Shown one piece after another: positions 12,236-64,000 of a DNA stretch of 64,000 bases (within the stretch, counting starts at the first letter, position 1; each line of letters starts with the position of its first letter). The position numbers and the translations under genes were made by a program. The notes under the pieces were generated by a model. The model did not search any database and had not been told where the DNA came from. It saw only the letters and a list, made by a program, of their open reading frames with translations. The DNA is from Cyanidioschyzon merolae (taxonomy: Eukaryota), in the NCBI GenBank assembly GCA_000091205.1, contig AP006497.2. One strand, 5' to 3'.

Positions 12236-14943
12236 TGTTCGTGAAACGTACGACCAAATGCGTTCACAACCATAAGTCCACTTCTAATGCATAGTTCTCG
12301 GGGAAGACTCTTTTTTTACGTTCTTGTTTCGTACCGCACACCAGCGCCCTGTTCACGATCGAGCGTCGAGGGCGCGCGTCGCAACTGGAGAACGGCACCG
12401 ATTCGCGTACCGCATGGGGGTATCTGACGCGTCCACAGCGCTGTGGTATGGAGAGTTTGCATGTTCGTGATGTGCATCGCTTCGGATCGGTCATGAACTG
12501 TGGAAGAGTTATGAATTGGTTCAGCGGAATAGATTACCATTTGGATTTGATTAAAAAAAGCGGTGAAACCTGCGCACGCTTCACGGATTGGAACGGGGAA
12601 ACGAGCGAGAAATACGTGCTGCAGCGGGAGCGCGCTCTCCGCGACAGCCTCTGCTGGACGACGTCGATGGTTGCTTCAGAGCTTGCTGCGAACAGCTGGG
12701 AGTACTTTCAATCATTGTCTGGTGATTTTGGTTCGTCATTCACGGTAGGGTCTTGTTGGACGGCGCAAACTTGGACCCGCAATGCCACGGATGAGCCGCG
12801 GGAGTGTCGACCGCGTATCCAGGTGCCGGTGAGGGTATACCCAATGGAATGCTGCAGCTCGAGCTGTCATGATTGCCCCGCATACACTATCAAGATAAGA
12901 TCCGCCTCAGCGCGGTGACTTTGGAGCTGTATGTCTCGCTATACCCGTGTCAAATGAAAACGGGATACTGGATCGATCGCTCTGGTCCTTACCTGAGCGT
13001 TGCCCAACTTTTTCAGGCGTTTAGCCCTGAAATTCGAAATGCGATCAAAAAATTCCTATTCATTTATACCATGTCGTATGATTCTCGGTCGTCTTTTAGA
13101 CATGTCAAGTGCGACGCGGTGCCACTGGGTTTCATCGCTTCTGCTTCCTAACAAAGATTCGCAACGACGATGAGCACGGGTTCGTAAATTGCCGACGTCA
13201 TTCTACAATGCATGCGTGGAAGTCTGGATGCTTCTCGTTTCCTGAAGTGCGGTCTGCTCCAATCTTGCATTCTCCAAATGTTCGGTCTTTCTGTTCTCGA
13301 CGACGTCGTGGCCCGGCGACTTGCTTATTTGCTCATGACGCACGTTGACTGAACTTTTCGCTTCAGCGAATGATCGATTCGGTTTAGGAGACGAACCCTC
13401 CTATCTTACTGGTCATCGACGAGGCGGCATTCGACAGCAGCCTGCTGCCTCTCACATGACACGCCCGCAGACAGACCCGTCTCTTCTGTTTCCATGGAGA
13501 GAGGCCTCGTTCTCGGACCTGAATCATCCCAGCGATCGCCCGCGGTGGAGCGTACGTCAACGCTTTCCACGCAGGTAGGGTAGACGAAACGAAATTTCTC
13601 GCCCAGGTTTCCCGCCTGAGTTTTATTGCGATTTCTGATGCCATCATGATGAACATCGCGTTCCACAAACCTCGATCGAACCGAGGAGCGTGCCCGTGCT
13701 TGTGCAGCGGACTGAGCGCCTACCGAGGACTCTCGCCCGGAGGGTGCTCGATATTGTAGGGTACGGTGCCGGGCGTGGAAACGGAGGATTGCAACACCGA
13801 CAAGCATCCGTACCCGTCAAGCGCACAGCCCAAGCGGTTAGACAATCGCTGTTGCGCCGCATGGTAGAGCGCCATGCAGATTCTGTGTGGTCGACACATG
13901 CAAACACCTGACCAGAGTCGAACGTTATCCCTGCGAAGGGCATACCAAGATCGTTAGCCGAGAAGATGGAATATGGCAAGCGAAGCATAGTTCGTAATTT
14001 GTGCCTATGCATGAAATGCAGCAACAACAGCTGGAAAGCAGCAAGATCAGGAGTTCAAGGTAGCTGCCAATGGCCTTCGACTGCCAACACCAGAGCTGGA
14101 ATGCCAGGAGGAACCGTCGTCGTTAAAACAGGCGATAAGAGAGAGGAATAGGAAGCAGTCACAGAAAAAGCCCGCAAAGGCTGGTGTTGTTGATACTGGG
14201 AAGCGACCCAAACTTTAGAGCGTACGCCCGTGTCAGGTAAATGGGCCCGTCGCATTTCATTCTGACCTGGACGTGTAGCAGAAACGGATGCGCTGCTGCT
14301 CGAGTTCGATCCCGACGACGACGATGGAGGTTTCGCTATGCATCGAGCTTACCCCATCCGCAAGCGTCATCGCTTGCCTGGTCCAGCTGACTACCACGGA
14401 CACGCAGCAGCTTCAACGTGCGCTGCAGCAGCGAGGCGCCACCTATCGACGCTTGCCCAGGAGTAGTATTGCCCCGACGCCGGACTCGGGTGTGCGCCCG
14501 TGGCCAGACCCTCGAGTGCGCGCACCGCCTCCCGACACATGCCCAGGAGCAGCGGTGCCTTGTCGTTGCACGCGTGTGTGGACCCGCGCACTGCCATCCT
14601 CCTGGTCGACGGGTGCCTGATTTCCTCCAGATTCCTTCGGTGTCGAGCCATGAGATGCACAGTACGTGAGCTCGTCACGTAGGCTCGGATTCCCGGACGC
14701 GTCCAGCTACGGAATTCTCCTGACTGGCGAGACCACCGGGGAATCCGCGTCTTACGTCCAGGCCAAGTAGGCGATCTGCGCACATCCGTCGTCCAAGTGC
14801 TGCGCAGCAGGCGCATGCCCAGTCCCAGTTTATCGGTTATCGTCCCTCGAACCAGACATCGTTTTCACGAATGCAAATTCACGAGCATGCGTTTATCACC
14901 GAGCATTCGTGCGCAGAATTCATGGAAGTGTCACGAATGGAGC

Positions 14944-18773: not shown

Positions 18774-20939
18774 CACCGATTGATGGAGCACCGTGGTCGT
18801 TAGCCAGGTGCATGGGAAATTCGGTCTCGATGGATCCAGGCATTACTGGATTCCCTCTGCATTCTCGGTATTTGCACCGTTTCACAGCCTTGCTCCACGC
18901 GTGGTCCGAATGTCCTCTCTGCTGCGCTGATTTTTTCATCGCAAGTCATCTGCGTATTAGAGCCATGCCCACAGTGCGTCCGAAACGATGCCCGCGGACG
19001 CTCCTGGGGCACGACATCCTTCCGCATGTCGATCGAGCCGCTCAAGTCCAGGTTGAGCGTGTGTTTGCGCGCACGGTTGCTCCTGGGGCACTCCACAGGG
19101 AGCAGCTCGCATGCTAGTGCCTCGCATTCGGACGTTCAGGCATGTTTCCGCACTCCGTATCGTGCATTCGTCTCTATTTGACGCCCCTGTGCTCTGCTTG
19201 TTTCGGCGTACGGTTGTATGCATGATGAGCGTAGATGCCGTTCAGGAGGCATCGACGAGCCTCGAAGAGAATCGATTCGTGAACGTGTGTGACGCTCTCG
19301 TCGACGGAGCAGGAGCGCAGCCTTTGGGCGTGAGCGCACGTCCAGCGTCGTGCGCTGCCACCAGACGACCCGAGATGTTAGTCGTGATCGTGGCTAACAT
19401 GTTGAACGGGGTGGCGAGTGCGCGCTTCTTCCCGCCGACCAGCGGAAGCTGCTTGGGAGCCCCAGCTCAACCGCGTGGTCCCGTGTCCTCCTGCCGAAAA
19501 TCCTTCTCATGAGCCGTGTGCATACTCATGTATGTACTGGTGCACAGCACCCCTTGTATCTGTACCCGCTTTTCTGGGCCTCTGAGGCGGCGGTACATTG
19601 CGCAAAAGATGCACTCTACAGGGACGCACAGACGGTTGTTGCGGAGAGTTTGGTACGCTTTGGCACTGGCGCTGTCGGTGTTCCTGTCGCTGAGCAGCAT
19701 GGCAGTGCATCGAAGGATGCTGGAAAGCCCGTGTGTGTGTGTGTGTGTGCGTCGCTGGTCCGCCGATTAGGCCGCATTGCATCCGCGGTGCCGAACATCA
19801 CGCTTCATGTCGCATGCGGGTTTGGTCGAGCAGGTCTAGGCCAGTGTGGACATCCGGCACACTTGCACCCGGAATGCCGTCGAACTGCTTGCTCGACGAG
19901 GCGCTTCCGTGCAAGGACAGCGAAACGAGTATTTCTCGAGTGAAGCGTTACCCACTCATTCATGACGCGCTGTGTCGTTACGCGTGCCGGATACGAACGA
20001 CTCGCCTACCGATGCGTGATCCTCGAAGCGGTGTAGAAGCATTAGGAAGGCGGATTTGGCCCGATGGAACCAGGGAGCATCGGCTAGCACGTGGCGCACC
20101 TGAACGCCTATGCCAGCTGCGTACGCCTTGACCACGTATCAGAGATGGAAAGCGACGCTGCCCCTGAACAGGACAGACGCATACGGGAAGCAGAAGCCAG
20201 GAAGCGTGCATCGACGAAGAGTGCGCTGTTGAGCGATCCAGTCTGGTTGGCGATTCACAGGAGACCGCATCCTTGGATGGTCGTTCGCGTTGATGTCGAC
20301 GGCATGCTCGTTTGACTGTTCTGAGCAGACCGGGGCTTGCCCCTGTTTGCGTATCCATTGTGGAAGTCGACCAGGTCTTCTTGCGTGGAGCCTCGTCGAG
20401 CGAGACGATCTCTGGCCCCTGCCGCGCTCCGCCCTCGCGTTCCAGCATGACGCCGATGGTGTGGTATGCGTCGTGCGTCTGTCTCCCCGAGAAGCGTCCT
20501 TTCTTTCTTTCGTTCTTCGTCCATGGTGTCTCTTCGTCACTGTTCGTATCAACGGCACGCGGAATTCGGAAGCTCCGGCTTCTCTGAAAGTATTTCCTGC
20601 ACAACGCGTAGAATGGGATGGATTGACGAGTACTGGGTTGCATAGGCAGCGTTTTCATCAATTTTGTTTACGGGTTATGACATTCAGAGCAGGGACTTGC
20701 ACGGTATTTGGTCCAGTGGCTATCGCAGATTGACTGCATTGGACAAGCACCGCCGTTCTTTTTCGCGAGCTTGCACTCGCAGCATCACGGCATTCCGTAA
20801 CCTTTCTCCAGAGCGCAGGATACACTCCTTTGTATTGAATCGCTGTGCGAGAAACAAAAACAATACGGGTGTGCTGGCGCAGCTTCTCCAGAATTCACTG
20901 GTCTGAGCGTAACGCCCGAAAGGTGTTGGAAGCAGCGAG
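18771..20939. repeat. Copy B of the ~2.17 kb dispersed direct repeat, with a (GT)n microsatellite at ~19731-19748
   Basis: See copy A. Copy B begins exactly at the TGA stop of the glycosyltransferase ORF. The shared sequence ends at gcagcgag|ctcac, where copy A has tcgcg. Confidence 0.85.
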
Positions 20940-23253: not shown

Positions 23254-23385
23254 GCTGCAGCAGGAACCAGTACGAGTTCGGACTTGCTCCTGCTGCTCCT
23301 GCTGCTGCTCTCAAGCGTCAGCCAGGAGTCTGTCTCAGCTACGCCGCTGCTTCAGGCCTGCCTGCGCTCTACGGATACCTGTGCT

Positions 23386-23478
23386 GGACATTCGGTGCCA
23401 TCTCTAAAGTTGGACATCCGATGCCATCTCTAAAGTTGGACACTCGGTGCCATCTCTAAAGTTGGACATACGATGCCA
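23386..23478. repeat. 26-bp tandem repeat, ~3.5 units (ggacatNcgRtgccatctctaaagtt), in the HisF-ThrRS divergent intergenic region
   Basis: Read directly from the sequence: units at 23386, 23412 and 23438, plus a partial unit at 23464. Each unit contains ATGCCATCTCTAAAG. The last partial unit supplies the ATG of ORF 23473. Confidence 0.9.
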
Positions 23479-25719
23479 GCGACGGTTCCCAGGCCCCGGC
23501 TTGCACTGCGACATCTCGTCGACGTCGTCGACTGTACCGGGGATGATCGTCAACGGCATTGCGCTCTGGGCGTGCTGCTGCGTCTCTCCTGCCTCAGGTG
23601 TTGTTGTTGTTCTTGTTGTTGTCAGCGGCGTTGGCGGCTCGGCTCTGAGGTGCTTTCAAACCAGTATCCATTGTCAAGCCAAGCTATGCTTACACGTGCA
23701 GAAAACAGGGGTTTTGTGCGTTTATTGTTCATCTCACGTCTGGGTCTACTGCGCACGCCGTCGACCTTTGGACGCTGGGCAACAGCGTGCGCCCCCCAGC
23801 GGCGTGTACGTGTCGAACAAACAGCGAGGCCGCTTGCTCATTGCTGCGGCGTCCGAGGGCTGCGGTCGTGCTCAGCGGCATCGACACCGCGTACCAGTCA
23901 ACAAGCGAACGCAAGTCAGAAAGCACCTGTCGCTGCTGGTGACGCAACGGGGACCTCTCGACTCGACGCACTGCCGACGAACGAGACGAATCCAAGGCTG
24001 TTGCGCATTCGCCATACCTGTGCTCACGTTATGGCTATGGCCGTACAGAGAATATTCCCCGAAGCCAAAGTGACTATTGGGCCTTGGATAGATAACGGCT
24101 TTTACTATGACTTCGATATCAGTCACCCATTCTCACCGCAAGACCTCGAGCGCATCAAACAGGTCATGGATGAGATTATTCTAGCGGATTTGCCGCTAAA
24201 ATGCGTGGCGCTCTCACGCGAAGAGGCGCGCGCCCGCGTCGAAGCACTCGGTGAGCCGTATAAGCTGGAGATATTGGATTCGATCACCGAGGAACCAATC
24301 ACGATCTATTCCGTTGGAGACGACTGGTGGGACCTCTGTGCCGGGCCACACGTTGCCAGGACCGGCGAGATCAACCCGGAAGCGGTGCAGCTGGAGGGTG
24401 TTGCTGGCGCCTACTGGCGCGGCGACGAGTCGAAACCGATGCTCCAACGCATCTACGGAACCGCTTGGGAGACGCCTGAACAGCTTCAAGAGTATCTACG
24501 TCGCCGTGAGGAGGCCAAACGCCGAGATCATCGCGTGCTCGGAGAGCGGCTTGGTTTATTCTCCATTCAGCAAGATTTGGCTGGACCAGGGCTTGTTTTC
24601 TGGCACCCGAAAGGAGCCTTTATTAGGAATATGATCGAGACTTTCTGGAAGGATGCGCATCTTGCGGACGGCTATCAATTGCTGTACACTCCGCATCTTT
24701 CCGACCGCGAATTGTTCCGCGTTTCCGGTCATGTGGACTTTTACGCGGAGAGCATGTTCAAACCGATTGAGTGCGAATCTCGAGAGATTATAGCCAAGCC
24801 AATGAACTGTCCACATCATGTTCTGGTGTACAAGAGCAAATTACGCTCGTATCGAGAGCTTCCGGTGCGCTTCGCCGAGTTGGGTACTGTCTACAGGTAC
24901 GAGCGATCGGGCACGTTGCACGGTCTCATGCGCGTTCGTGGGTTCACTCAAGATGACGCGCATATTTTCTGCACGTTTGATCAGCTGCGATCCGAAATCA
25001 AGCGAGTCCTAGACCTCACTGAAACAATACTATCGCGTTTTGGATTCCGTGACTATCAGGTGCATTTATCGACCCGACCCAAAGTTTCCATTGGTAGTGA
25101 AGAGGCCTGGTCGCGTTCCGAGCAGGCGCTGCGCCTTGCGCTCGAGGACAAGGGATGGTCTTTCACCGTTGATGAAGGTGAAGGGGCCTTCTACGGAGCG
25201 AAGATCGATTTGAAAGTTCGTGACGCACTCGGTCGTTTATGGCAGTGCTCTACCATCCAGTGCGACTTCAATTTACCCGAACGATTCAATTTAGAATACG
25301 TAGCGAGTGATGGTTCACGCGAGCGACCTGTCATGGTGCATCGCGCGATATTCGGCTCGCTGGAACGCTTTTTTGGGATTCTGATCGAGAATAGCGCCGG
25401 GGACTTTCCGTTGTGGCTCGCGCCAATACAGCTCCGGCTGCTACCTGTCTCTGACAAATTCTTACCGTTCTGCGAGCAGGTGGTCGACAAGGCCCGTCGA
25501 CGTCGTCTCAGAGCGGAGATCGATCTGTCAGCGAATCGCCTCGGCAAAAAAGTTCTCAACGCAGAAGAGGAGCACATTCCCTACATGGCCATTGTCGGTA
25601 AGCGCGAGGTTGAATCGGATGCACTGTCGATGCGTTCTAGACACAAAGGCGATCTGGGATCTGTACCAGTAGACGAAATCCTCGCCCGTCTGGAATGTGA
25701 AGCGTCTATGCAGCTCTGA
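23473..25719 (+). CDS. thrS: Threonyl-tRNA synthetase, bacterial/organellar type; the conserved part runs from ~23990 and the N-terminus is uncertain
   Basis: The editing-domain HxxxH motif HTCAHVMAMAV and the class II motifs are present. MNCPHHVLVYKSKLRSYRELPVRFAELGTVYRYERSGTLHGLMRVRGFTQDDAHIFC is nearly identical to E. coli ThrRS motif 2/3. The first ~170 aa of the ORF are low-complexity (CCCCSCCC) with no TGS domain. Confidence 0.85.
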   Translation: MPATVPRPRLALRHLVDVVDCTGDDRQRHCALGVLLRLSCLRCCCCSCCCQRRWRLGSEVLSNQYPLSSQAMLTRAENRGFVRLLFISRLGLLRTPSTFGRWATACAPQRRVRVEQTARPLAHCCGVRGLRSCSAASTPRTSQQANASQKAPVAAGDATGTSRLDALPTNETNPRLLRIRHTCAHVMAMAVQRIFPEAKVTIGPWIDNGFYYDFDISHPFSPQDLERIKQVMDEIILADLPLKCVALSREEARARVEALGEPYKLEILDSITEEPITIYSVGDDWWDLCAGPHVARTGEINPEAVQLEGVAGAYWRGDESKPMLQRIYGTAWETPEQLQEYLRRREEAKRRDHRVLGERLGLFSIQQDLAGPGLVFWHPKGAFIRNMIETFWKDAHLADGYQLLYTPHLSDRELFRVSGHVDFYAESMFKPIECESREIIAKPMNCPHHVLVYKSKLRSYRELPVRFAELGTVYRYERSGTLHGLMRVRGFTQDDAHIFCTFDQLRSEIKRVLDLTETILSRFGFRDYQVHLSTRPKVSIGSEEAWSRSEQALRLALEDKGWSFTVDEGEGAFYGAKIDLKVRDALGRLWQCSTIQCDFNLPERFNLEYVASDGSRERPVMVHRAIFGSLERFFGILIENSAGDFPLWLAPIQLRLLPVSDKFLPFCEQVVDKARRRRLRAEIDLSANRLGKKVLNAEEEHIPYMAIVGKREVESDALSMRSRHKGDLGSVPVDEILARLECEASMQL

Positions 25720-33011: not shown

Positions 33012-35469
33012 TCCTCTTCACGACAGCAACTCCCTCGAAACGCTCGGGGCGTGCTTCCACGCGGGTTTACGTGTCTGTTGTGTGTAGCAAGCCAGAGGAT
33101 CTTGCAACACTCAATGGCCCGATTTCGCTATCCACATTGCCGCTTTCATCCGTTGATGCTCGAGGCACGCGCCTGGCCGGCCGCACGCTGATCGCTGGCG
33201 CGCGCGGAAGTCTCTGGAAGGCGGGGTCATATTTTTCCCTTAATGGACAGTTCCATCACATGCTGCGTGTCGCGTTGTACCCGCTACGGAGAACGTAGAT
33301 CATCTGCAGCGGGGATGTGACAAGCCGATCGCTGTGCCCTCATGAAGCTGGGTATGGACAGGCTCGCAATGCTTAGCGTTTTGGTATCTGCACTTGGGGA
33401 CGCAATCCATCAGAAGGCCTCTGGGTGATGCATAGAATGACTGGATGGTCTCTGGTTCAGTGAGTAGGAGGATTCGATCATCGCAGATCTCGAACGCCCA
33501 GCTTCCTATTCCTCTCTCGGGTGGAAATGCAGTACTGAACTGCTCGATCTGCTCTTACATTTCTTCATTCATTTCGGGCTTGTTTTGGGTGTACTGTCTC
33601 GATTTTCGAAGTACGATACGAGGGACTTGCGAGTTCGTACGTATTTTTAGGATTCTTGGACTTATTTTTGAGTGGCTCACTCGAATCTCTGCTGATGGAG
33701 CTCATTGCGTCTTAGGAATCAAGATGATTCACGTAATCGTAGAGCAAGTGTTCGTAAAATGACCAATGTCATTATCCATTGTATAGGAAGTATCCTCCAT
33801 TCTTCTCGTTTCTTTTGCGCACTGCATCCTCTAATCACACGTTGTATCCAAGTTTTAGACCTTTCTGCTTCGGGCCAACCTGTGGGCTCAACAATTTGCG
33901 CGTCTGGACTGACGACGAATACCACTCGTCGATCTCAAATGGCGGCATGTGTAGAAGCTCGTGCCAAAAGTTCGTTGAGCTTCTCGAGTCAAATATTCGA
34001 TTCCGTTCCAAACACAAATCTACCACGCTCTGTGAACATCGACGAAACTGTTTCGGCGGCAGCATGATACCTCTCGTGCGATATGCTCCAAGACATCCCG
34101 TTTCCTCTGTTCTTTTTCGATGGAAAAAGGTCCTGGAGTCGGACTTGAGGCATGACAACGATCGCTTTCGTTGGAGTATGTGTGACCGCTTTGCACGAAC
34201 GCAGCGTCGATGCATCGAGAGTTTTCGATCTTTTCTCCACCGCTCTTTTCGCTTTCGGTTCTTGATTCGCCATGAATCAGCTCGGGTTCCGCCAACATCT
34301 GTCGAATGGTACAGCGTGCGCGTGCGTGTGCACCAAAAAGAGTACTCGCCGAGGATATTGCTCGCAAGAGTCACGCGATCGTAGGGCAGGGCACCGGGAG
34401 CGAAAACGATGGAGACTGCCCAAAGGAGCCTTCCGTAACCGTCAGCGACATGCGCCGGACCCTGAAGCCAGTCTGAACGCGGTGCAGGACGGCCCTCGGG
34501 CGAGCGGATCTGAAGTGCCTACAGAAGCCCTGGTTCACGTTCAAGTGTCACCGCTGCACAGCGCGCACCGAGGCTTTATGCATAGAGTATCAATATGCGA
34601 AACGAGGCGTGGATCGCAACCACCGTCTGAGCATGAAACGCGTCGGTAACAGCCGGAAGCATCGAATCCGAGAGTTTAACACTGCCGTCAACATCGTTTG
34701 ACTGCTGCCAATAGGGCCACAGGGACAAGAGAGACCTCTGTGTTTAGATCTAGAGGTAAGAGCGAGGGCAAGGAAGCAATTGCAGAAAATTCTCGCACTT
34801 TCTTGTATTGATGACATTGGGCAGAGACTCGAACTTTAGAGTGTACGCACGAGTTGGATACGCGGACTCTAGTCTGAAACGGATATATTCAGCGACTCGA
34901 ATGGCCTCTGAGTAAACGGGTCTATTGAAGCGATAGGAAATGGAACACTCCGGAAGGAACGTTACAGGTTCTGGTACTCGTGAAATATAGAAGAATTTGT
35001 GCGGCACACGAGCTCCGTTTCCTGATTAGCACCAAAGCTTCCGCATCCGAAAGCCTTACTGGTTGCTTCGCGATATCCGTCGCCCATGCAGAGATTCTGC
35101 CGCCTTCGGCCTCGTCGCTGGCAAAAAAGGAGCGGCTGTCAGGTCAGGTCCGTGTCATGGCCTCCACACAGAAGCGGAAGCAACCAGACCGCGGAACTGC
35201 TTTCCGTACTCGAGCTGGGCACGAGACGATGACCCCAGCTCTGCGCTTCGTATCCGACTGCAGGCATGCAACGCGTCCAGTCCATTCGTTGTATGCAATC
35301 GTTAGTTGCAGCCTCCTGGAAGCAGCAGATATTGATTCAATTGCGTGATCTGTATGTCCAACGCGAACTAGGCTTTATCAGAGTCGCATTCGCACGCATG
35401 TATCGCTCAGTTCTGCGTACTTCAAATCCAGTACGCAAATATGTGTCCGAAATATGCAGTCTCGCATTT

Positions 35470-44161: not shown

Positions 44162-46282
44162 TCAGTGATTTCGCTCTTGTAGAGCCAACAGCATCCCGTA
44201 ACGGCTGTTCGATTCACGAAGAAGCTCCTCATGTGTGCCGTATTCGACAATCTCGCCATTCTCCATAACCGCAATGCGATCAGCATCTCGAACGCTTGAG
44301 AGACGATGAGCAATAAAAATAGTGGTTCGTGGGTACGCGCTTGATGCGAATAGCTCACGAAGACTCGAAAGAATATGAGTTTCATTTTCGGCATCGAGAG
44401 CGCTGTATGCTTCGTCGAGTATGAGAACACCCGGCTCGCGGTAAAGCGCCCTAGCGATAGCAAGGCGCTGCCGTTGCCCACCCGACAGATTTGAGCCACC
44501 TTCTCCAACCAGCGTTTCGTACCCTGCAGGCAGATCCTTCACAATGAAATCGTGTGCTTTTGCTAATTGGCAACAATATTCAACTTTCATGGGGTCCATT
44601 GGCAAGCCAAACGCAACGTTCTCCGCTACTGAGAAATTCAACATCGGTGCGTCCTGGGGCACCACGCAAACCTGTCGGCGAACATAGTCAAGCGGCATGG
44701 ATCGGATATCGACACCGTCCAGGTACACGAAACCGCGCTGTGGATCACACATGCGGCTCAATACAGCAATCAATGTTGATTTGCCGGCACCGCTTCCGCC
44801 AACGATGGCTACGCGCTCGCCTGGATGAACAGTCATCGTGACGCCACGCAGCACATATTCCGAATCTGGTGCATAGCGGAACCATACGTTCCGTACTTGG
44901 ATTTTTGATGCGGCTGGTTTGGGAATACTGGAGGTCTCTATTTGAGTACGCTTTTTGGGACGCAGGTTGATAACACGAAACACTCGTCTTGCCGACTCCT
45001 CGCCTTCTTTCACACTCCCCAGACCAGAGGCTATCCCTTGCACTGGCTCTATGAGAAATGCCACAGCGGCGATGAAGGAAACGAGCTCTTTCGGCTCGAG
45101 ATAACCCCAACTGATACAAAGTGCGCTTGCATAGAGCATTGTCAGGACTGTTATAGCGTAGCAAACAGATATAGCAGGTACAATCCCGGCTCGAATAAAA
45201 TGCATGCGGTTCTTTGCGAGAAGGAGCTCTTTCGCGAATGCTTCCAGTTTTGACGCAGCAAAATCCTGTGCTAAATACAACTGCAGGAGTTGCCGATTCC
45301 GAAAAGAGTCTGCAGTCGCTGCAGCGTACCGAGCGAACAGCTTCTGCGCCTGTCTTACATACTGGTCCAGTCTTCGTTCAAGAATCGCATAGACGACAGC
45401 CATGAGCGGTGCGGTACATAATATACACAGTGTCAAGGGCAGAGAAACATACAACATATAAGCAAGCATCACGACGAATTGGAGCACGCTGGGCGCAAGC
45501 GAGCGGAGAACGAGAAGCATGGCACTACCTACCCGCTCTATCTCCATGGTGGCTTGCATGGAAGCTTCACCAGAGTCTAGGGCGCCCTCCTCTAGACCGA
45601 AATCAAGGGCGGACGCAACATAACGCGCCCTGAGCGCGTCTTCGACAAAGTTGCATGTTCGGGATAGCCATACATCCTGACCAAACTGAGATGCTACCCG
45701 CAAAAGGAGCGCAACGCTGCAGCCGACCGCTAGTTGGCCCACGTTTGCCAACGAGCCGGCAGCCACGGCCGAGCTTAGACGCCCGAAGAGGCGAATAAGC
45801 CACAAAAGGGACGAACTCGACATAAGGGTGCATAGTCCCGAGAAAACAACCTCCTTTGTGTGTGTCCTGATCAAGCTAGCGAAAACCTGAGCCAATTGCC
45901 ACCGACCAAGGCTTTGAATACCTGCCCCAATAGCCGAGTCGCGGGAGATGCTTTGAAGTTGTGTCACACTGAGCTTTCGCAAGCGCTTTCTAGGAACGGC
46001 TACCACTTTCGGAGCCCTCCGTCCCAGAAAGCAAACGACAGGAGACACCAGATATCGCGACTGCTGACAGAGCTGATCGTTGCCACCATAGAACGCAACA
46101 CTACTCCATAAACTTGGAACGATGAAAGCTAGCGAGCGGCATTCTTGGACAAGGTGCCTTCCCCTTGCCATAGCTTTTGGACTACACCGTTGCTGCTGGC
46201 GTCTTCGACAGGGCGCACTGCGGGGCCACTGACCCGCACGGGCTCGACCGTCGAGATGGACGTGCTGCCGGGGTCGTCCCAA
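44162..46282 (-). CDS. ABC half-transporter (type I exporter: 6-TM domain plus NBD; ABCB ATM/MDL/TAP-like) with an N-terminal basic presequence
   Basis: Walker A GGSGAGKST, the ABC signature LSGGQRQRLAIARAL, Walker B ILDEAYSALD and the H-loop IAHRLS are present. An N-terminal transmembrane domain precedes them. Confidence 0.85.
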   Translation of the reverse strand: MGRPRQHVHLDGRARAGQWPRSAPCRRRQQQRCSPKAMARGRHLVQECRSLAFIVPSLWSSVAFYGGNDQLCQQSRYLVSPVVCFLGRRAPKVVAVPRKRLRKLSVTQLQSISRDSAIGAGIQSLGRWQLAQVFASLIRTHTKEVVFSGLCTLMSSSSLLWLIRLFGRLSSAVAAGSLANVGQLAVGCSVALLLRVASQFGQDVWLSRTCNFVEDALRARYVASALDFGLEEGALDSGEASMQATMEIERVGSAMLLVLRSLAPSVLQFVVMLAYMLYVSLPLTLCILCTAPLMAVVYAILERRLDQYVRQAQKLFARYAAATADSFRNRQLLQLYLAQDFAASKLEAFAKELLLAKNRMHFIRAGIVPAISVCYAITVLTMLYASALCISWGYLEPKELVSFIAAVAFLIEPVQGIASGLGSVKEGEESARRVFRVINLRPKKRTQIETSSIPKPAASKIQVRNVWFRYAPDSEYVLRGVTMTVHPGERVAIVGGSGAGKSTLIAVLSRMCDPQRGFVYLDGVDIRSMPLDYVRRQVCVVPQDAPMLNFSVAENVAFGLPMDPMKVEYCCQLAKAHDFIVKDLPAGYETLVGEGGSNLSGGQRQRLAIARALYREPGVLILDEAYSALDAENETHILSSLRELFASSAYPRTTIFIAHRLSSVRDADRIAVMENGEIVEYGTHEELLRESNSRYGMLLALQERNH

Positions 46283-46301
46283 CCTGCGCTAAACGCTCAC
46301 T

Positions 46302-47766
46302 CGTGTCATATTAACATGGAATACCGGACTGGTAGCTCCGTGCCTGCCTTTCTGTCTCTTTCCGGACCTTTTTTGGATGTACATCCTAGACATTCAAGGT
46401 GCAGCGACGGGGGATTACGGATTCATGCACAGTATCAGAGTTCGTGGTCGTCGTTTCAGAGCGGCTTTTTCGAGCTTTTGCCGCTGGAATCCGTTCCGCT
46501 ACGGGGTAGAAGATGACCCGCTGCGCCCTTGAGTAACGGTTCGTAAAACAAGCCGTGTCATTATCCACTGCATACGTAGAATCCTCCACTGTTCTCATTT
46601 CCGTACCTGCAGCATGCTAAAATCATACATGCTTAAAGTATTCGATCCGTTCGATTCATGGTGGTCCATGGGCGCAGCAATTCGCGCCTTTAGATAAACA
46701 ATGAAAAATGCGACTTCATTGCCGGACGACTTGTTAACAAGCCCATGCCAGAAGCTCATTGAAAATATCAAATGAAATAATTGATTCATTTGAAAATATA
46801 GATCGTTGTCTCTTTGTCATCATCGACGAAACGCAATTCGACACTAGCATAACGTTTGTTACGGGTTTTTCTTCCAGGATATCTCGCTCAACTGTTTGCG
46901 CGGAAAAGATTCTTGGACTTTGGGCATCGGAGCAATGGCTTCTAACTGAGCATGCGTTATCAACTTGCATAAAGGGAGCGAAGACGGATCGAATTTTTTC
47001 GACGTGATCATCATCCTGAATACTCCTTCTGGAACATGTTTCATCATAAACAATACAGTATGACGCAAATTCTCTACTTAATGGCGATACTTGCGCTCGC
47101 GCCCGCGAGGGATGGATTACTCGCCTTGGATTTCTCTTAGAACTAGCCCATGATCGTAGGATTCGGCTACGAGCACGGAAACGGCGGAGGACATGAAGCG
47201 AAGCCTTCTGGACCCGTCAGGAGCATCTACCAAGCCTTTCGTCGATAATTACAAAGAGACAACGATCTATATTTTCAAATGAATCAATTATTTCATTTGA
47301 TATTTTCAATGAGCTTCTGGCATGGGCTTGTTAACAAGTCGTCCGGCAATGAAGTCGCATTTTTCATTGTTTATCTAAAGGCGCGAATTGCTGCGCCCAT
47401 GGACCACCATGAATCGAACGGATCGAATACTTTAAGCATGTATGATTTTAGCATGCTGCAGGTACGGAAATGAGAACAGTGGAGGATTCTACGTATGCAG
47501 TGGATAATGACACGGCTTGTTTTACGAACCGTTACTCAAGGGCGCAGCGGGTCATCTTCTACCCCGTAGCGGAACGGATTCCAGCGGCAAAAGCTCGAAA
47601 AAGCCGCTCTGAAACGACGACCACGAACTCTGATACTGTGCATGAATCCGTAATCCCCCGTCGCTGCACCTTGAATGTCTAGGATGTACATCCAAAAAAG
47701 GTCCGGAAAGAGACAGAAAGGCAGGCACGGAGCTACCAGTCCGGTATTCCATGTTAATATGACACG
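46302..47766. mobile_element. Foldback/hairpin element: essentially identical ~530 bp inverted-repeat arms (46302..46833 and 47237..47766) around a ~400 bp spacer
   Basis: The six-frame ORFs in the left arm on the minus strand (70 aa and 64 aa) are letter-for-letter identical to ORFs in the right arm on the plus strand. The arms diverge just after atcgacgaaa on the inner side and before cgtgtcatattaacatgg on the outer side. Confidence 0.8.
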
Positions 47767-48453
47767 GGAGTACCAGCAGGCTATGGAAAGAACAAAGCGG
47801 CCCTAGTGCTTGGGCCCAGCATAGTCTGCCTTCGCGACAACAGCAAACCATCTCGCACGAACACGTATCGAGCCGTCACCTTCATGCTTAGCGCACTGAG
47901 TGATTTCCAGGCAATCTACTGACAGAATCGATGCAAGTCGGCTAGAACGGCGAATGGGTGAAATTACCATCAATGGATGCGCGTGACGCATGCCACTTAT
48001 CCAACAGGTATCTTTTTGAAACTTCCATAATCTATAGCAGACTTGCACCAGCGCAGGGAACGACGAAGGCTCTCCGACGGCTTTCGAGGTGCTGTTGCCT
48101 GGACGCGGTAGGTGCATGCCGGTTCGCATCCTGCTAACCAAACTTCCGGATCAGAAGCGATCCAGCATTAGAGACACGACACAGCTCCGAACACATCTGT
48201 GATGCATCACAGCGTCTGCACCTGTTCACAGCCCATGATCAGCTTCCGCTGAGAGACTCACCACTCGGTGACAGGTAGCTAATGCATTCGTCCGATGCAT
48301 CTTGCGATCACGTGTACGACGCGGTTTTGGAATCTCTCTAGAGGTCCGCAGCACTGCAAAACACGCTCCGTGCAGGTTCAACACGGCACTGCTGACCATT
48401 TTTCTTGTGGAATTTCGTGAACGCAAGCTTGTAGGCGCAGCCCGGCCGCTCTA

Positions 48454-49119
48454 TCATTCCCTCAGCATCTCAACCGTGAAGCATACTGCAGCTGAGACGG
48501 TGCCCACAACAGCACTTGCTGCGAGAAAATAGCCAGCACTCCCGGGGCGCAGTTGAGCTCCATTCGAAGACGAGTGCAGCGCAAGCCGATTCCTCAAAGC
48601 GATGAATAGCCACTTCATCCAGAGCGTCGAGATCCCGCTGGCTGTTCCAGCTGCGGCTGCTATCAGGCGCGGATTCCGTAGCTGTTCAACCGTAGAGAGT
48701 TTCTCTAAAACATGCCCAGAGGAGTGATCGAGGATCTTATCCGTCCAGATCGCGCTCTGGCGGTCCAGGAAACAGTATATTCCATAATACTGGGCAGTGA
48801 AGACGCCAAATTCCGCTGCACGTCCGATCGCACTGACAAAAATCATACTCATATACAAGTGTGACGGGTACGCAAAAGGTCTCGGTACTCGAAACTGCCA
48901 TAGGTGTCTCCAGTCGAGAGCCTTTCCCCACGCCGTGTTCGTGCAGTCCCGCACGCTGTTGTCCACGTGGGCAGTATCAGAGCGGTGGGAGCCCCAGACT
49001 CGGTGTACCCCAACAATGGCGCCCCAAGCGAGGCCCAGAGGAACGCCTTTCAGCGCTCCGTCGAGTACCTGAGAGGTACAAGACCAGTCTGGTTTGCGAG
49101 TCCTTACTGGCTCCGCCAT
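48454..49119 (-). CDS. Hypothetical small membrane protein with Gly/Ala-zipper helices (possibly Tim17/Tim22/OEP16-like)
   Basis: This 221 aa ORF contains several G/A-rich hydrophobic segments (LGLAWGAIVGV, AAAAGTASGI, AASAVVGTVSAAV). The assignment is weak and rests only on composition. Confidence 0.3.
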   Translation of the reverse strand: MAEPVRTRKPDWSCTSQVLDGALKGVPLGLAWGAIVGVHRVWGSHRSDTAHVDNSVRDCTNTAWGKALDWRHLWQFRVPRPFAYPSHLYMSMIFVSAIGRAAEFGVFTAQYYGIYCFLDRQSAIWTDKILDHSSGHVLEKLSTVEQLRNPRLIAAAAGTASGISTLWMKWLFIALRNRLALHSSSNGAQLRPGSAGYFLAASAVVGTVSAAVCFTVEMLRE

Positions 49120-57610: not shown

Positions 57611-60600
57611 CTATTTAATCTCAGAATAAGTTTCCGCCATATCGTCAACAGACAAGAAGATAAACTGGGTCTAGTGCATCGCATGTACCGAAAATGGGGC
57701 GTCCCGTTTCAGACTTTCAATTCAATTCTATTCCACCTTTGCTGCGATTTATTGGAGGAGGTCAAAATCGCTTTGCAATGTATATATCCTAGACGAATTG
57801 CTTGCAGGACGCATTCATTACTGTGCAGTGCAAGGAGGACAGCTTCCTTCTTCAGGCCAGTCATAACACAGCACTCAGATGCTTGCGGAACATTGAAAGA
57901 AACAAGTATATGCGCTGCGCATCAAAAACCGGTATTCTCAAAGAGTGCTTGCGATCGATTGTAGAAAACGGCCTGTTTATCACCTTACGGGAAGCAAAAG
58001 CAACGATAGCAGCCATCATGAGCGCCTCTCTTTCTCAACAGCTTGTTCATGTGGTCCTAAAAACATTCGGATACAGTCGAAGAAAACGAGACTTAGTTCA
58101 CGCACGAGAGTCTTCTACCGAAATCGCAACGACTGTGTTCCTGGAACCTCGAGGTCGATGTGAAGCACCAGGACGTTGGTTTGTTTTTCTGACAGTCGAA
58201 GAGACTTGCGTCGGAGGAAAAGGTCGGAGCGTGTGCGGGTTTTTGCGGTTCAGGGAGCTCGTTATCTGCACGATGGAACTCGAAGAGATCGAGGATATCA
58301 TCATAGGCTCTTACTGCAGTAGATTCATTCTGCGGCATAAGTTTCGCTGGTACAGAAGGCTCACATAATAGCAACAACCATCTCATCGAATCATTGAAGA
58401 TTTTTCCCTGACGCTTGGCGGCTTCTGTCCATTGGACAACATGCATTTCATCAAGTCATTTGCGTTCGAGCTTTTCCGATTTCATCGACATAGAGATGCT
58501 TTCCATACCCCCGTACGCTCCTTGGTTGAAACCAATCCAAGGAGCGTTTTCTGTTGTAAAAAGTAATGATAGCTCCGCTGGGCGGATCGTTGATGCCTTC
58601 AGCTCACAGTAACACACCGGGGCACATATCGTCTTTCTTCCGCAAGTGCTCCTTCCTCCGGGAAGGTCATCATCTGAGGCTATTCAGAATTGCGTTCATT
58701 TTAAAAAAAATAAATGGATGAGCCTGTGTGTACGTTTCAGAGGTTCAATATGGAATGAAGGCGGCGAAGCGTATCCTCGACAGAAAAGCAGAGAGAGCTG
58801 ACAGAGCAGCAAATGGCACAGAGGGCACGGGTCCGTGATCTCCTTTCATTGATGAGTTTATGCAGCGGCAAGAAACGCGTCGAGATCGTGAACGCAGACT
58901 TTGACTCTGCTATCAACATCAGAAGATGTGCATTGATGAAAACGAGACCCGCAGAGCTGACGCGATCCAACGATGTAGGGGAGCTTCTAAAAGCCGAAGT
59001 GTACAAGCAGAAACTGAAGCCGATACCAGGGGCCAGTCAAAAAACGCTGGGAGGCGCTTTGAGTGGATACTAATTTACCCTCAGTGGTCGCGAAACTTTT
59101 TTTCTTGTACTGACATGTCGTCTATTAACGAAGTTTTCCGTAAAGCACGGATGGATACCGATTTCGCAGGGCTCTATCTTTTGCATGCGAGTCTGATCTC
59201 CTCTGCTTCATACGTGTCAGCGTCAAAATAGAACACTGAACAGCTCGCTCTTATCTCGCTTCTCGAATTTTTCCCGAACTTTGCTATGTGCACAGCATCG
59301 AAAGTCGAAGCACATCAAGAAATACTTTCAGTCTCTCACGTAGGTTTAGAATGCTCTATTGTCATTTCAGAGTGGTTCCTGCCAAACCTAGGTACTGGAA
59401 CACGTTATGCCATCCTCATTGATATGGGCAGTGGCGCACTTGAACAAGCGCCCGTAAAATAACCTATGTCATTATCCAGTTCATACGTTCAAGCTTCCTC
59501 TCTTCTCCTTCCCCAGCTTTATGATGCTCAAATCACGCGTTCTCCACGTTTTCATTCTTTTTGTTTGAATGCAACTCATAGATGCTGCTAGATGCGCCCT
59601 CTATTGAGGACGAGAAGAACCCGACGCTTTCCCTTGACGGCTTGTTCGCAAGCTCATTCTCATAGATCATGGAACTTGTTATTCCAAATAATCGATTTCA
59701 TGTAGAAGACAAATCCTCTTTTCTTTGTGACCGTCGATGCGGGAGCATTCGTCATCAGAGTGATTTCTCTCTCTGGATACTCTCCATGGTTCCCATCTCT
59801 TCTGTTTGCATGTAGATGCTTCTTGGACTCGGACTTGAGTCATCGCAGTGATCGCTTCCAGTAGAAATTGAGTCATCACTATACAGGAAAGGGACTTAAA
59901 CGGATCAAAATCTCTCTACTTGTTCTCCAGAGTGGAGCCCCCGTTACTTTGCTCGCCATGGACAACGTCACGGTCCACACAGACTGTATCGAACGAAGCA
60001 GCATGCGCCCGCGCATGCGACGGGTAAAGTGCTCGCCTTTGAGATCCCGAAGAACAAGCCCGTGATCGTGGGAGACTCCACCGGCCATGCTAGCCAAAGA
60101 GCGCATCGAGGGAAGCCTTCTTCAGCAGTCAAGCGCGTACGCCGAGCGATGAAGCAAACTTTTTCGTGCCGCAGGGCGGCCTTCGGAGCTGGAATTGTGG
60201 CAGACATACATGAACATCCGACCCCGACCATGTTTCACCGCTTCGAAGGGCGCGCCGACGCAGTTCACAAAGAAGCAGAAAATTGGCAAGCGAAGCGCAA
60301 ATCGCTGCCACAGGCCGCGGGCACATATCATCGACAACGGTCGGGAGCTGCTGAATCTGGACTTGAACGTCGCAATCAGCATCCTTTGGCTGGTCAAAAC
60401 GGAGCTGGAAGGACACAGGAGACAGATGTATAGAAAGCCGGAGTAAAGATAGAGGAAAAGGAAGCAGTCGCGGTGTGAGCTCTGCAAGCTGCTCTTGACG
60501 ACAGTGGGAAGAGATCTGAACTTTATCTTGTACTTACGAGTCAAGTCAGTTGTCAACTTCCGTATTATTTTGATGTTGGTGTAGCGGAATAACGAGGGTA

Positions 60601-63164: not shown

Positions 63165-64000
63165 GAGCTCTTTGCAGCGAATTCAGGAGATCAAACAAGC
63201 AATTCACTAATTCTGGAATTTTTGCACCATACCAAGTCTCGATGTGTCGCAGGAGTGCAAACGCTTGGACAACATCAGAGTAAACTCGGATGTCCTATTC
63301 TACATAGTTTTGCATACCCGAAACATTGATCATCCATGCTGCCAATCGTTGGATGATGCCAGCGATCAACGAACTCTGACGTACAACGCGTGCGCGCAAC
63401 ACGCGAAGGGCGTTTGTCGGCCGATACGAACGTTTCCGAAATGGCAAAATTTAGGTGGCACCTCGGGCAATCTGAATAAATATGCACGAGACTTGTCGCC
63501 TTTTGCTTTTAGAAGGCTGCGCTGACGGCCTCTACTGGTGCCACGTGACTTGCAGTGCAATGCCGGGCACCAAAGCGAAAATATGCATTCCAGTGTTCGC
63601 TGGAGCATACGGAAGTGAAATTTGCAGATTTGAGCGAGCGTTTCCTTGAGACCTGCACGAACTCTGCAAATTTGACGCAGGCAACTTGAAGAATGGATAC
63701 AGCGCGGCCTACCGCGATATCTCTTTGCAACCATAATAGGATAAAAAGGAAAGAGTCTACTTGCGTAACTCACACAGGTGTTCTAAAGACTGTGTCTCTT
63801 CACATTGCCATCAACATTAGCGGGTTTTGGCTTTTTCTTTGACTGTGTCCCTAATTTCTCCCCTCTTTCCGGTATTGAATTCGCCGGATGCTCATTGGCC
63901 ACCAGCCCTTTTGTCAGAAGTCGAAGGACGCAAATGACAGAGTTCATGTCCCGATCTCGCTGCTCCCTGCTGTTTTTGACGACTTTCCTGCACAGACGCA

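What the first reader, a model, noticed from the sequence alone, without database searches (positions are those of the whole stretch)
46302..47766. Near-perfect 530-bp inverted repeat (foldback/hairpin element) in the ABC-transporter promoter region
The two arms (46302-46833 and 47237-47766) appear letter-identical, as their translated ORFs are identical over 70 and 64 aa. They flank a ~400 bp AT-richer spacer with no ORF. Long perfect palindromes are unstable and usually short-lived. Possible explanations are a very recent foldback-type transposon insertion, ongoing arm homogenisation, or a locus that yields a long hairpin RNA as an siRNA/miRNA precursor. The element starts ~20 bp from the annotated start codon of the ABC half-transporter, so it could influence that gene. 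No target-site duplication is evident at the outer ends.
Basis: seen in the sequence. Interest (0 to 1): 0.7.

Follow-up and report, generated by a model that had tools for sequence, protein, structure and literature searches.

The report
Inverted duplicate of a red-alga repeat

Summary
Arms 46302-46834 and 47234-47766 are 533 nt and differ at 3 positions, all in the innermost 17 nt. That leaves 516 nt perfect, around a 399-nt spacer.

The window is Cyanidioschyzon merolae 10D, a finished Sanger genome. The same structure, with the same junctions, appears in more than 20 independent metagenome contigs of ~99.5%-identical wild strains. It is therefore neither a misassembly nor a very recent event.

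Left arm plus spacer is the first 944 nt of a ~1.39-kb non-coding dispersed repeat, which I call family X. The window holds 5 copies at ~60% identity. The right arm is an inverted copy of positions 1-531. Both outer ends fall exactly on position 1 of the family.

Strains differ at 11 or more arm sites, and each haplotype is seen from both flanks. The two 10D arms show no difference at any of these sites. This points to arm-to-arm gene conversion.

I found no target-site duplication, tandem subrepeats, coding signal, Rfam match or second locus. Published work reports that Cyanidiophyceae lack Dicer and Argonaute, which argues against an siRNA/miRNA role. The sister genus has the same gene order with a 918-bp intergenic region and no such element.

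Overall this is an ordinary structural by-product of repeat expansion. It may contribute promoter sequence to the ABC gene, whose start codon lies 130 bp away, not 20 bp.

The parts
46302..46834 (+). Left arm, equal to positions 1-533 of the family X copy U3. It is perfectly paired with the right arm over 46302-46817.
   Evidence: A profile built only from U1/U2/U4 matches 46302-47239 as model positions 1-944, E=5e-115.
46835..47233 (+). Spacer (399 nt). It is the colinear continuation of the left arm within family X (about model positions 534-944). It is not palindromic and has no coding or RNA-family signal.
   Evidence: colinear with U1, U2, U4; no Rfam or Pfam match; the spacer against its own reverse complement is ~50% identical, i.e. 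background.
47234..47766 (-). Right arm, an inverted copy of family X positions 1-531. Its outer end falls exactly on family position 1. Its inner end joins the truncated unit at ...CTACCAA|GCCTTTCGTCGAT, with at most 1-3 nt of junction overlap.
   Evidence: 47766-47236 on the minus strand = model 1-531, E=1.5e-67.
46818..46834 (.). Inner 17 nt of the arms (mirror 47234-47250), which carry all three arm-to-arm mismatches. Homology here is still significant (P=0.0003) and then stops abruptly.
44162..46171 (-). ABC half-transporter gene (BAM81480.1, 669 aa; ABC_membrane + ABC_tran). Its ATG lies 130 bp from the left arm.
48454..49119 (-). CMO106C, a hypothetical protein of 221 aa (BAM81481.1). 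Its stop codon lies 687 bp from the right arm. No gene is annotated between it and the ABC gene, as their accessions are consecutive.
12946..14288 (+). Family X copy U1, full length, with no inverted partner.
33518..34868 (+). Family X copy U2, full length, with no inverted partner.
59213..60596 (+). Family X copy U4, full length, with no inverted partner.
63718..63998 (-). Family X copy U5, a 3' part cut off by the end of the window.

Best explanation
The element is a by-product of repeat expansion in the nuclear genome of Cyanidioschyzon merolae.

A copy of the alga's non-coding ~1.39-kb dispersed repeat (family X) lies upstream of the ABC half-transporter gene. It is truncated after position ~944 and is followed directly by an inverted copy of its own positions 1-531. 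Both arms end at the exact 5' terminus of the family.

Two origins fit this anatomy:
- A snap-back copy made while an element strand was being synthesised: synthesis stalls at ~944, the 3' end re-anneals at ~533 and runs off the physical 5' end.
- Two convergent insertions of then near-identical copies, followed by one deletion.

Since then the two arms have been kept identical by intrachromosomal arm-to-arm gene conversion. Mismatches survive only in the innermost 17 nt, where conversion tracts rarely reach. The 399-nt spacer makes the structure stable enough to persist.

The element most likely has no dedicated function. It probably contributes part of the promoter or 5' region of the ABC gene, simply because it sits 130 bp from the start codon.

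Shown here: the anatomy, family membership, presence in wild strains, identical arms despite between-strain variation, and absence from the sister genus. Inferred: the mechanism of origin, gene conversion as the homogenising process, and any promoter contribution.
For: Organism and assembly: exact protein matches identify C. merolae 10D, a 100%-complete Sanger genome (PMC1955436).

Family membership: sensitive BLAST and an nhmmer profile built without U3 match the left arm plus spacer as model positions 1-944 and the right arm as model positions 1-531. Three full-length copies and one partial copy lie elsewhere in the window. None of the other copies has an inverted partner. The family shows no preferred reading frame and no Pfam or Rfam match.

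Persistence: more than 20 metagenome contigs from JGI, ENA and Logan carry the arms at the same two junctions. Two contigs span an arm, the 399-nt spacer and part of the other arm.

Concerted evolution: variant sites 46500, 46507, 46526, 46533, 46588, 46589, 46655, 46699 and others are seen from both flanks. Site 46699C>T is mirrored by 47369G>A within a single contig. The 10D arms have 0 differences in 516 nt, against 1.1-1.7% divergence between strains.

Lineage specificity: Cyanidiococcus keeps the gene order helicase / 221-aa gene / ABC / amine oxidase / PPase. Its intergenic region is 918 bp, against 2283 bp here (817 bp once the element is removed). It has no inverted repeat and no family X. 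This matches the published repeat expansion in Cyanidioschyzon: 12.7% versus 0.59% repeats, and mean intergenic length 1890 versus 930 bp (PMC9812998).
Against: The mechanism of origin is not observed, and the two scenarios cannot be told apart.

The metagenome evidence for mirrored variants is weakened because de Bruijn assemblers collapse the two arms into one path. One contig (L030) has N at exactly five variant sites, which could mean mixed strains or arms that differ.

The three inner mismatches could come from error-prone synthesis at the junction rather than from age.

The whole 10D genome could not be searched, so other A-B-A' copies or close relatives of the arm elsewhere cannot be strictly excluded. 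No expression data were available, so a regulatory or RNA role is not excluded.
Confidence: 0.7

Rival explanations
1. The 1465-bp A-B-A' unit is itself a mobile non-autonomous DNA element (foldback or MITE-like). It would have inserted as a unit upstream of the ABC gene and would be mobilised through its two identical termini.
For: Both outer ends are the exact 5' terminus of a dispersed repeat family. Removing the 1465 bp leaves an 817-bp intergenic region, close to the 918 bp of the sister genus. A weak Tc1/mariner-type DDE_3 relic lies in the window at 58415-58612.
Against: There is no target-site duplication and there are no tandem subrepeats in the arms. An arm-end 22-mer is found only at this locus, as exactly the left-flank and right-flank contigs, in the metagenome collection. 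The element is fixed at the same junctions in all strains, so there is no presence/absence polymorphism. The other family X copies lack terminal inverted repeats. P-MITE found no MITEs in C. merolae (PMC3964958).
Confidence: 0.1
2. The locus is transcribed through both arms and yields a long hairpin RNA with a regulatory role. This could be dsRNA-mediated control of the adjacent ABC gene or of family X transcripts.
For: The sequence would form a 516-bp perfect stem. Nozaki et al. report that interspersed repeats of C. merolae are transcribed (PMC1955436). Arm complementarity is retained across strains.
Against: Cyanidiophyceae lack Dicer-like and Argonaute genes, and RNAi does not work in C. 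merolae (PMC11376382, PMC9812998). There is no Rfam family match. The arm sequence evolves at least as fast as other intergenic DNA, 1.4% versus 0.6%. Seven or more mirrored changes at ~1% divergence are far more easily explained by gene conversion than by independent compensatory mutations.
Confidence: 0.05
3. The arms act as recombination substrates that flip the 399-bp spacer. This would make a reversible switch, for example of a promoter pointing towards or away from the ABC gene.
For: Contigs show the spacer in the 10D orientation (L002, L005, L024) and in the opposite orientation (L010, L020, L021/L027, L030), without correlation to arm haplotype. Homologous recombination between 516-bp inverted repeats is expected to invert the intervening segment.
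Against: The two isomers have identical k-mer content for any k below 516. Short-read assemblers therefore cannot determine the orientation and their choice is arbitrary, which makes the observation uninformative. No promoter or ORF is evident in the spacer. The spacer is simply the colinear continuation of the repeat family.
Confidence: 0.05
4. The inverted repeat is an assembly or cloning artefact, such as collapsed haplotypes or a chimeric clone.
For: Long near-perfect palindromes are a known artefact class. One metagenome contig (L030) does contain an artefact-like 96-nt perfect inverted repeat inside the spacer.
Against: The 10D genome is a finished, gap-free Sanger assembly (PMC1955436). 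The same arms, spacer length and junctions recur in independent MEGAHIT, SPAdes and Logan assemblies from many samples. Contigs break in or at the arms exactly as expected for a true two-copy inverted repeat.
Confidence: 0.01

Closest known systems
Large genomic palindromes and inverted repeats whose arms are homogenised by arm-to-arm gene conversion (e.g. human Y-chromosome palindromes P1-P8; plastid genome inverted repeats)
   Same: Two long inverted arms around a unique spacer. The arms are essentially identical within a genome although the sequence varies between lineages. Residual differences are concentrated at an arm boundary.
   Different: It is much smaller (0.5-kb arms against 9 kb to 1.45 Mb on the Y). 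The arms carry no genes. It is made from a fragment of a dispersed repeat. Gene conversion is inferred from sequence patterns, not demonstrated.
Foldback (FB) transposons and MITEs
   Same: Long terminal inverted repeats flank a short non-coding middle. The outer ends coincide with the terminus of a repeat family.
   Different: There are no subrepeats in the arms and no target-site duplication. It occurs at a single locus and shows no insertion polymorphism. Its relatives have no terminal inverted repeats.
Inverted duplications generated by fold-back priming or template switching (snap-back DNA; MMBIR/FoSTeS-type junctions)
   Same: The arrangement is A-B-A', with the second copy starting at an internal point of the first. 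There is almost no junction homology. Mismatches cluster next to the junction.
   Different: The copy ends precisely at an element terminus instead of running into flanking DNA. This suggests the template had a physical end there. No experimental support is available.
Interspersed repeats of C. merolae reported in the literature (253 copies of a ~3.2-kb element with a WSV486-like truncated ORF, PMC1955436; 12.7% repeat content, PMC9812998)
   Same: Dispersed, old, intergenic and specific to Cyanidioschyzon as compared with Cyanidiococcus.
   Different: Family X units here are ~1.39 kb and show no ORF signal. Identity with the published 3.2-kb element could not be tested, because neither the WSV486 sequence nor the whole genome was available.

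Membership tests
Foldback (FB) transposons | Long terminal inverted repeats built from tandem subrepeats | tested here: not met
   TRF finds no tandem repeats in 46200-47900.
Foldback (FB) transposons | Multiple dispersed copies flanked by target-site duplications | tested here: not met
   No target-site duplication. An arm-end 22-mer occurs only at this locus in the metagenome contigs. The whole 10D genome was not searchable.
MITE | Small size (below ~800 bp), short terminal inverted repeats, target-site duplication, high copy number | tested here: not met
   The element is 1465 bp with 533-nt arms, has no target-site duplication and occurs at one locus. P-MITE reports zero MITEs in C. merolae (PMC3964958).
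hpRNA / endo-siRNA or miRNA precursor locus | The host has Dicer and Argonaute to process the hairpin | tested here: not met
   Literature only: C. merolae and Cyanidiophyceae lack Dicer and Argonaute (PMC11376382, PMC9812998).
hpRNA / endo-siRNA or miRNA precursor locus | Transcription across both arms and discrete small RNA products | not testable with these tools
   No RNA-seq or small-RNA data were available. There is no Rfam match.
Palindrome / inverted repeat with arm-to-arm gene conversion | Arms far more similar within a genome than the same sequence is between lineages | tested here: met
   0 differences in 516 nt between the 10D arms, against 6-9 differences per 530 nt between 10D and wild strains.
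Palindrome / inverted repeat with arm-to-arm gene conversion | The same derived substitution is present on both arms of one genome | tested here: inconclusive
   46699C>T and 47369G>A occur in the single contig L002, and haplotypes are shared by left-flank and right-flank contigs. However, short-read assemblers collapse the two arms. In 10D, T at 46500 (against C in U1, U2, U4 and some strains) is on both arms.
Family X dispersed repeat of C. merolae (defined here) | Significant colinear match to a profile built from other copies, starting at the family 5' terminus CGTGTCA | tested here: met
   nhmmer gives E=5e-115 for the left arm plus spacer (model 1-944) and E=1.5e-67 for the right arm (model 1-531). 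The terminal motif is found only at U1 and the two arms, with 0 matches expected by chance.
Invertible DNA switch | Both orientations of the segment present in one clonal population, with orientation-dependent expression | not testable with these tools
   Contigs show both orientations, but k-mer assemblies cannot resolve orientation across 516-nt identical arms.

The most novel reading that the evidence does not exclude
The A-B-A' element is a snap-back product of the replication or insertion mechanism of family X, the unclassified non-coding repeat behind the intergenic expansion of Cyanidioschyzon. Its exact run-off at family position 1 would then show that new copies are made as strands with a fixed physical 5' end. 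A second possibility is that the 516-bp arms drive real flip-flop inversion of the spacer upstream of the ABC transporter, in a eukaryote that has no RNAi.
Probability: 0.12. Interest if true: 0.55.

Novelty: new member of a known kind. Interest (0 to 1): 0.27.

Why it matters
The main value is as a clean, small example. C. merolae is famous for a minimal, finished genome, has no RNAi and reportedly has no MITEs. Even so, a 1.46-kb near-perfect inverted repeat has persisted through the diversification of wild strains, with its arms apparently kept identical by gene conversion.

It also documents, at one orthologous locus, the repeat-driven intergenic expansion that separates Cyanidioschyzon from Cyanidiococcus. 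It defines a ~1.39-kb non-coding repeat family with a sharp 5' terminus, which could be followed up genome-wide.

For anyone studying the ABC gene BAM81480, the promoter region lies inside a repeat arm that is duplicated in inverse orientation 1 kb away. This matters for homologous-recombination constructs and for short-read mapping.

Tried and rejected
- Coding potential. Six-frame translations of the element and of two other family copies gave no Pfam hit at E<=1. tblastx between copies scored equally in all frames and on both strands. A transposase or integrase relic in the arm core (the 'DND..FT' motif) was therefore dropped.
- RNA genes. There was no Rfam match at gathering thresholds and no tRNA in the window.
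- Viral origin. The family-core pattern gave 0 hits in IMG/VR.
- Homology beyond the outer ends. An impression from alignments A1/A2 that the arms or family copies share ~8-20 nt beyond CGTGTCA was tested against random 30-mers and rejected (P=0.05-0.96). An anchored extension scored 0.
- Spacer flip-flop. Contigs with the spacer in both orientations looked at first like evidence of inversion. I rejected them as evidence because the two isomers share all k-mers shorter than the arm.
- Sister-genus alignment. Cyanidiococcus intergenic DNA is too diverged to align; only the 221-aa coding region aligns, at 59%. No empty-site junction could be defined, so only the length and the absence of an inverted repeat or family X could be compared.
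- Intermediate lineages. A protein search with CMO106C found only the C. merolae cluster and one 50%-identical cluster. The '614-aa' ABC variants turned out to be the same ~99.6% lineage. The age of the inverted repeat therefore could not be bracketed further.
- Centromere. The window has no strongly AT-rich block (the lowest 1-kb bin is 45% GC), and the condensin/CENH3 paper gave no usable coordinates.
The whole-genome copy count could therefore not be done.

Full report
OBSERVATION. The inverted repeat is real. The repeat finder reports arms 46302-46834 and 47234-47766, 533 nt and 99% complementary, with 399 nt between them. An alignment of the left arm with the reverse complement of the right arm shows only three mismatches, at 46818, 46821 and 46832. 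So 46302-46817 pairs perfectly with 47251-47766 (516 nt). Nothing comparable exists elsewhere in the window. As single-stranded DNA the 1.48-kb stretch folds into one hairpin of -760 kcal/mol.

Three details need correcting. The annotated ABC start is the ATG at 46171 (exact match to BAM81480.1, 669 aa), so the element begins 130 bp from it, not ~20 bp. The spacer (47.1% GC) is not more AT-rich than the arms (46%); the whole element is more AT-rich than the window at 54%. Short mechanical ORFs do overlap the spacer.

ORGANISM AND CONTEXT. Six long ORFs were looked up by exact sequence, and five are proteins of Cyanidioschyzon merolae 10D on a 902,900-bp chromosome. The neighbours of the element are BAM81480.1 (ABC half-transporter, minus strand, 44162-46171) and BAM81481.1 (CMO106C, a 221-aa hypothetical protein, minus strand, 48454-49119). 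Their accessions are consecutive, so nothing is annotated between them. This genome is a gap-free Sanger assembly (PMC1955436).

INDEPENDENT CONFIRMATION AND AGE. I fetched contigs that carry variants of the flanking proteins. This gave more than 20 metagenome contigs (JGI, ENA, Logan) from wild strains ~99.4-99.7% identical to 10D.
- All left-flank contigs enter the arm at 46302 and all right-flank contigs enter it at 47766.
- Most contigs end ~120-127 nt into the arm or at its inner end, as expected for a true two-copy inverted repeat in a de Bruijn graph.
- Two MEGAHIT contigs run through an arm, a 399-nt spacer and 136-157 nt of the other arm, and they show the same three inner mismatches.

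The structure is therefore not a misassembly, and it predates the divergence of these strains.

WHAT THE ARMS ARE. Sensitive BLAST (+1/-1 scoring) shows that left arm plus spacer (46297-47235) is colinear, at ~60% identity, with 59208-60147, 33527-34445 and 12943-13846. Those three copies continue for another ~400 bp. A profile built only from these three copies (U1 12946-14288, U2 33518-34868, U4 59213-60596) gives the following matches:
- 46302-47239 as model positions 1-944 (E=5e-115);
- 47766-47236 on the minus strand as model positions 1-531 (E=1.5e-67);
- a partial fifth copy at 63998-63718.

Both outer ends of the inverted repeat thus fall exactly on position 1 of this family, which I call family X. 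The family begins with CGTGTCA, and there is no significant similarity beyond that point. At the inner junction, colinear family homology runs up to ...CTACCAAGC and is followed at once by the inverted copy. None of the other copies has an inverted partner within 3 kb.

Family X shows no preferred reading frame, no Pfam hit, no Rfam hit and no match in viral contigs. The arms contain no tandem subrepeats.

CONCERTED EVOLUTION. Between 10D and the wild strains the arms differ at 6-9 of ~530 sites. This is more than other intergenic DNA in the same contigs (pooled 1.4% versus 0.6%, Fisher P=1.5e-4), although the contigs are not independent. The variant sites include 46341, 46500, 46507, 46526, 46533, 46588, 46589, 46655, 46687, 46699 and 46714. 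They recur as the same haplotypes in contigs anchored in the left flank and in contigs anchored in the right flank. For example, L005 and L011 share a haplotype, as do L002 and L021. In the single contig L002, 46699C>T is mirrored by 47369G>A.

There is a caveat. Short-read assemblers collapse the two arms, and L030 carries N at exactly five of the sites. The part that does not depend on metagenome assembly is that the two arms of the finished 10D sequence are identical at every one of these polymorphic sites. This includes 46500, where 10D differs from U1, U2, U4 and some strains. If the arms had evolved independently since the strains diverged, about as many arm-to-arm differences as between-strain differences (~5) would be expected. 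None is seen. Arm-to-arm gene conversion is the simplest explanation. Independent compensatory mutations at seven or more sites at ~1% divergence are not plausible. All three surviving mismatches lie in the last 17 nt before the homology ends, which fits an edge that conversion tracts rarely cover. Error-prone synthesis at the original junction is an alternative.

COPY NUMBER. A 22-mer from the arm end was scanned against the metagenome collection. It gave five contigs, all of them the left-flank or right-flank contig of this same locus. In two well-covered samples exactly the two expected contigs were hit. The whole 10D genome could not be searched with these tools.

SISTER GENUS. The Cyanidiococcus yangmingshanensis locus keeps the gene order helicase / 221-aa gene / ABC / amine oxidase / H+-PPase. 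The interval between the 221-aa gene and the ABC gene is 918 bp there and 2283 bp in C. merolae (817 bp without the element). It contains no inverted repeat and no family X. This matches the published statement that intergenic regions doubled in Cyanidioschyzon through repeat expansion: 12.7% versus 0.59% repeats, and mean intergenic length 1890 versus 930 bp (PMC9812998).

MECHANISM. Best reading (confidence ~0.7): a truncated family X copy joined to an inverted duplicate of its first 531-533 nt. It arose in one of two ways. One is a snap-back copy that ran off the physical 5' end of the element strand, which would explain why both outer ends sit on family position 1 and why the junction has almost no homology. 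The other is two convergent insertions followed by one deletion. Since then the arms have been homogenised by gene conversion. From general knowledge of inverted repeats in yeast and bacteria, spacers of this size greatly reduce hairpin or cruciform formation, so the 399-nt spacer makes long persistence unsurprising.

No dedicated function is indicated. Because the arm starts 130 bp from the ABC start codon, it probably contributes promoter or 5' sequence to that gene. This is inferred, not tested.

RIVALS.
- A mobile foldback or MITE-like element (~0.1). It is disfavoured by the lack of a target-site duplication, the single locus, fixation in all strains, and relatives that have no terminal inverted repeats. 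P-MITE found no MITEs in this genome (PMC3964958).
- A hairpin-RNA locus (~0.05). It is disfavoured because Cyanidiophyceae lack Dicer and Argonaute and RNAi does not work in C. merolae (PMC11376382, PMC9812998). The arm sequence also evolves at least as fast as neutral DNA.
- An invertible switch (~0.05). Contigs show both spacer orientations, but the two isomers share all k-mers shorter than 516 nt, so this is uninformative.
- An artefact (~0.01). It is refuted by the independent assemblies.

COMPARISON AND NOVELTY. Functionally the element resembles genomic palindromes whose arms are kept identical by gene conversion (Y-chromosome palindromes, plastid inverted repeats), on a much smaller scale and without genes in the arms. 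It fails the defining tests for FB elements, MITEs and small-RNA hairpin loci. It is a new instance of a known kind of structure.

The ~1.39-kb family X may correspond to repeats already counted in published repeat censuses. Whether it is the 253-copy, 3.2-kb 'WSV486-like' element of Nozaki et al. (PMC1955436) could not be tested. I rate interest as low to moderate (0.27). The finding is mostly explained and ordinary. Two small open points remain: how family X replicates, and whether the spacer inverts in vivo.

Noticed in passing
window 4948-7122 and 18766-20939: A 2.2-kb direct repeat at 98.5% identity, 13.8 kb apart. It is far younger than family X. The ORFs inside it (5697-6314 +, 6143-6844 -) have no Pfam match. 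It could be a recent segmental duplication or a young repeat element.
   Followed up: partly
window 58415-58612 (+), within ~57.9-58.65 kb: A degenerate transposase-like stretch (…LSIPPYAPWLKPIQGAFSVVK…) gives a weak DDE_3 (Tc1/mariner-type) Pfam hit, E=0.007, below the curated cut-off. It may be one of the few class II relics reported for C. merolae.
   Followed up: partly
window 12946-14288, 33518-34868, 46302-47239, 59213-60596: All four plus-strand family X copies have their position-1 end facing the start of a minus-strand gene or ORF: RAD26 at 12235, DnaJ at 33011, ABC at 46171 and an ORF at 57610. The distances are 0.13-1.6 kb. Four of four is not significant on its own, but it could hint at promoter-proximal insertion or promoter donation.
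   Followed up: no
window 46507-46589 (mirror 47479-47561): Five of the between-strain variant sites cluster within 83 nt, in the most conserved core of family X. Contig L030 has N at exactly these five sites. Possible causes are a single conversion tract, perhaps ectopic from another family copy, or two co-existing haplotypes.
   Followed up: partly
window 46302-46834 / 47234-47766 versus other intergenic DNA: Between strains the arms diverge about twice as fast as other intergenic sequence in the same contigs (1.4% versus 0.6%, pooled Fisher P=1.5e-4; the contigs are not independent).
   Followed up: partly
L030:8813-9079 (JGI24721J44947_10015278): This metagenome contig ends with a 96-nt perfect inverted repeat around a 75-nt spacer, made from spacer sequence 46818-46985. 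It is probably a fold-back assembly chimera at this locus.
   Followed up: no
window 46768-46793 and 47275-47300: There is a 26-nt near-palindrome, TCAAATGAAATAATTGATTCATTTGA, inside each arm. Its significance is unknown.
   Followed up: no
window 23385-23478: A short tandem array with a 26-nt period (TGGACAT.CG.TGCCATCTCTAAAGT) lies at the start of the ORF 23473-25719.
   Followed up: no
family X 3' ends: window ~14230-14288, ~34830-34868, ~60540-60596: About 55 nt before its 3' end, each full-length family X copy carries CG(T/A)GTCA in direct orientation. This is the same heptamer that starts the family. It could be a short terminal direct repeat or a recombination core.
   Followed up: partly
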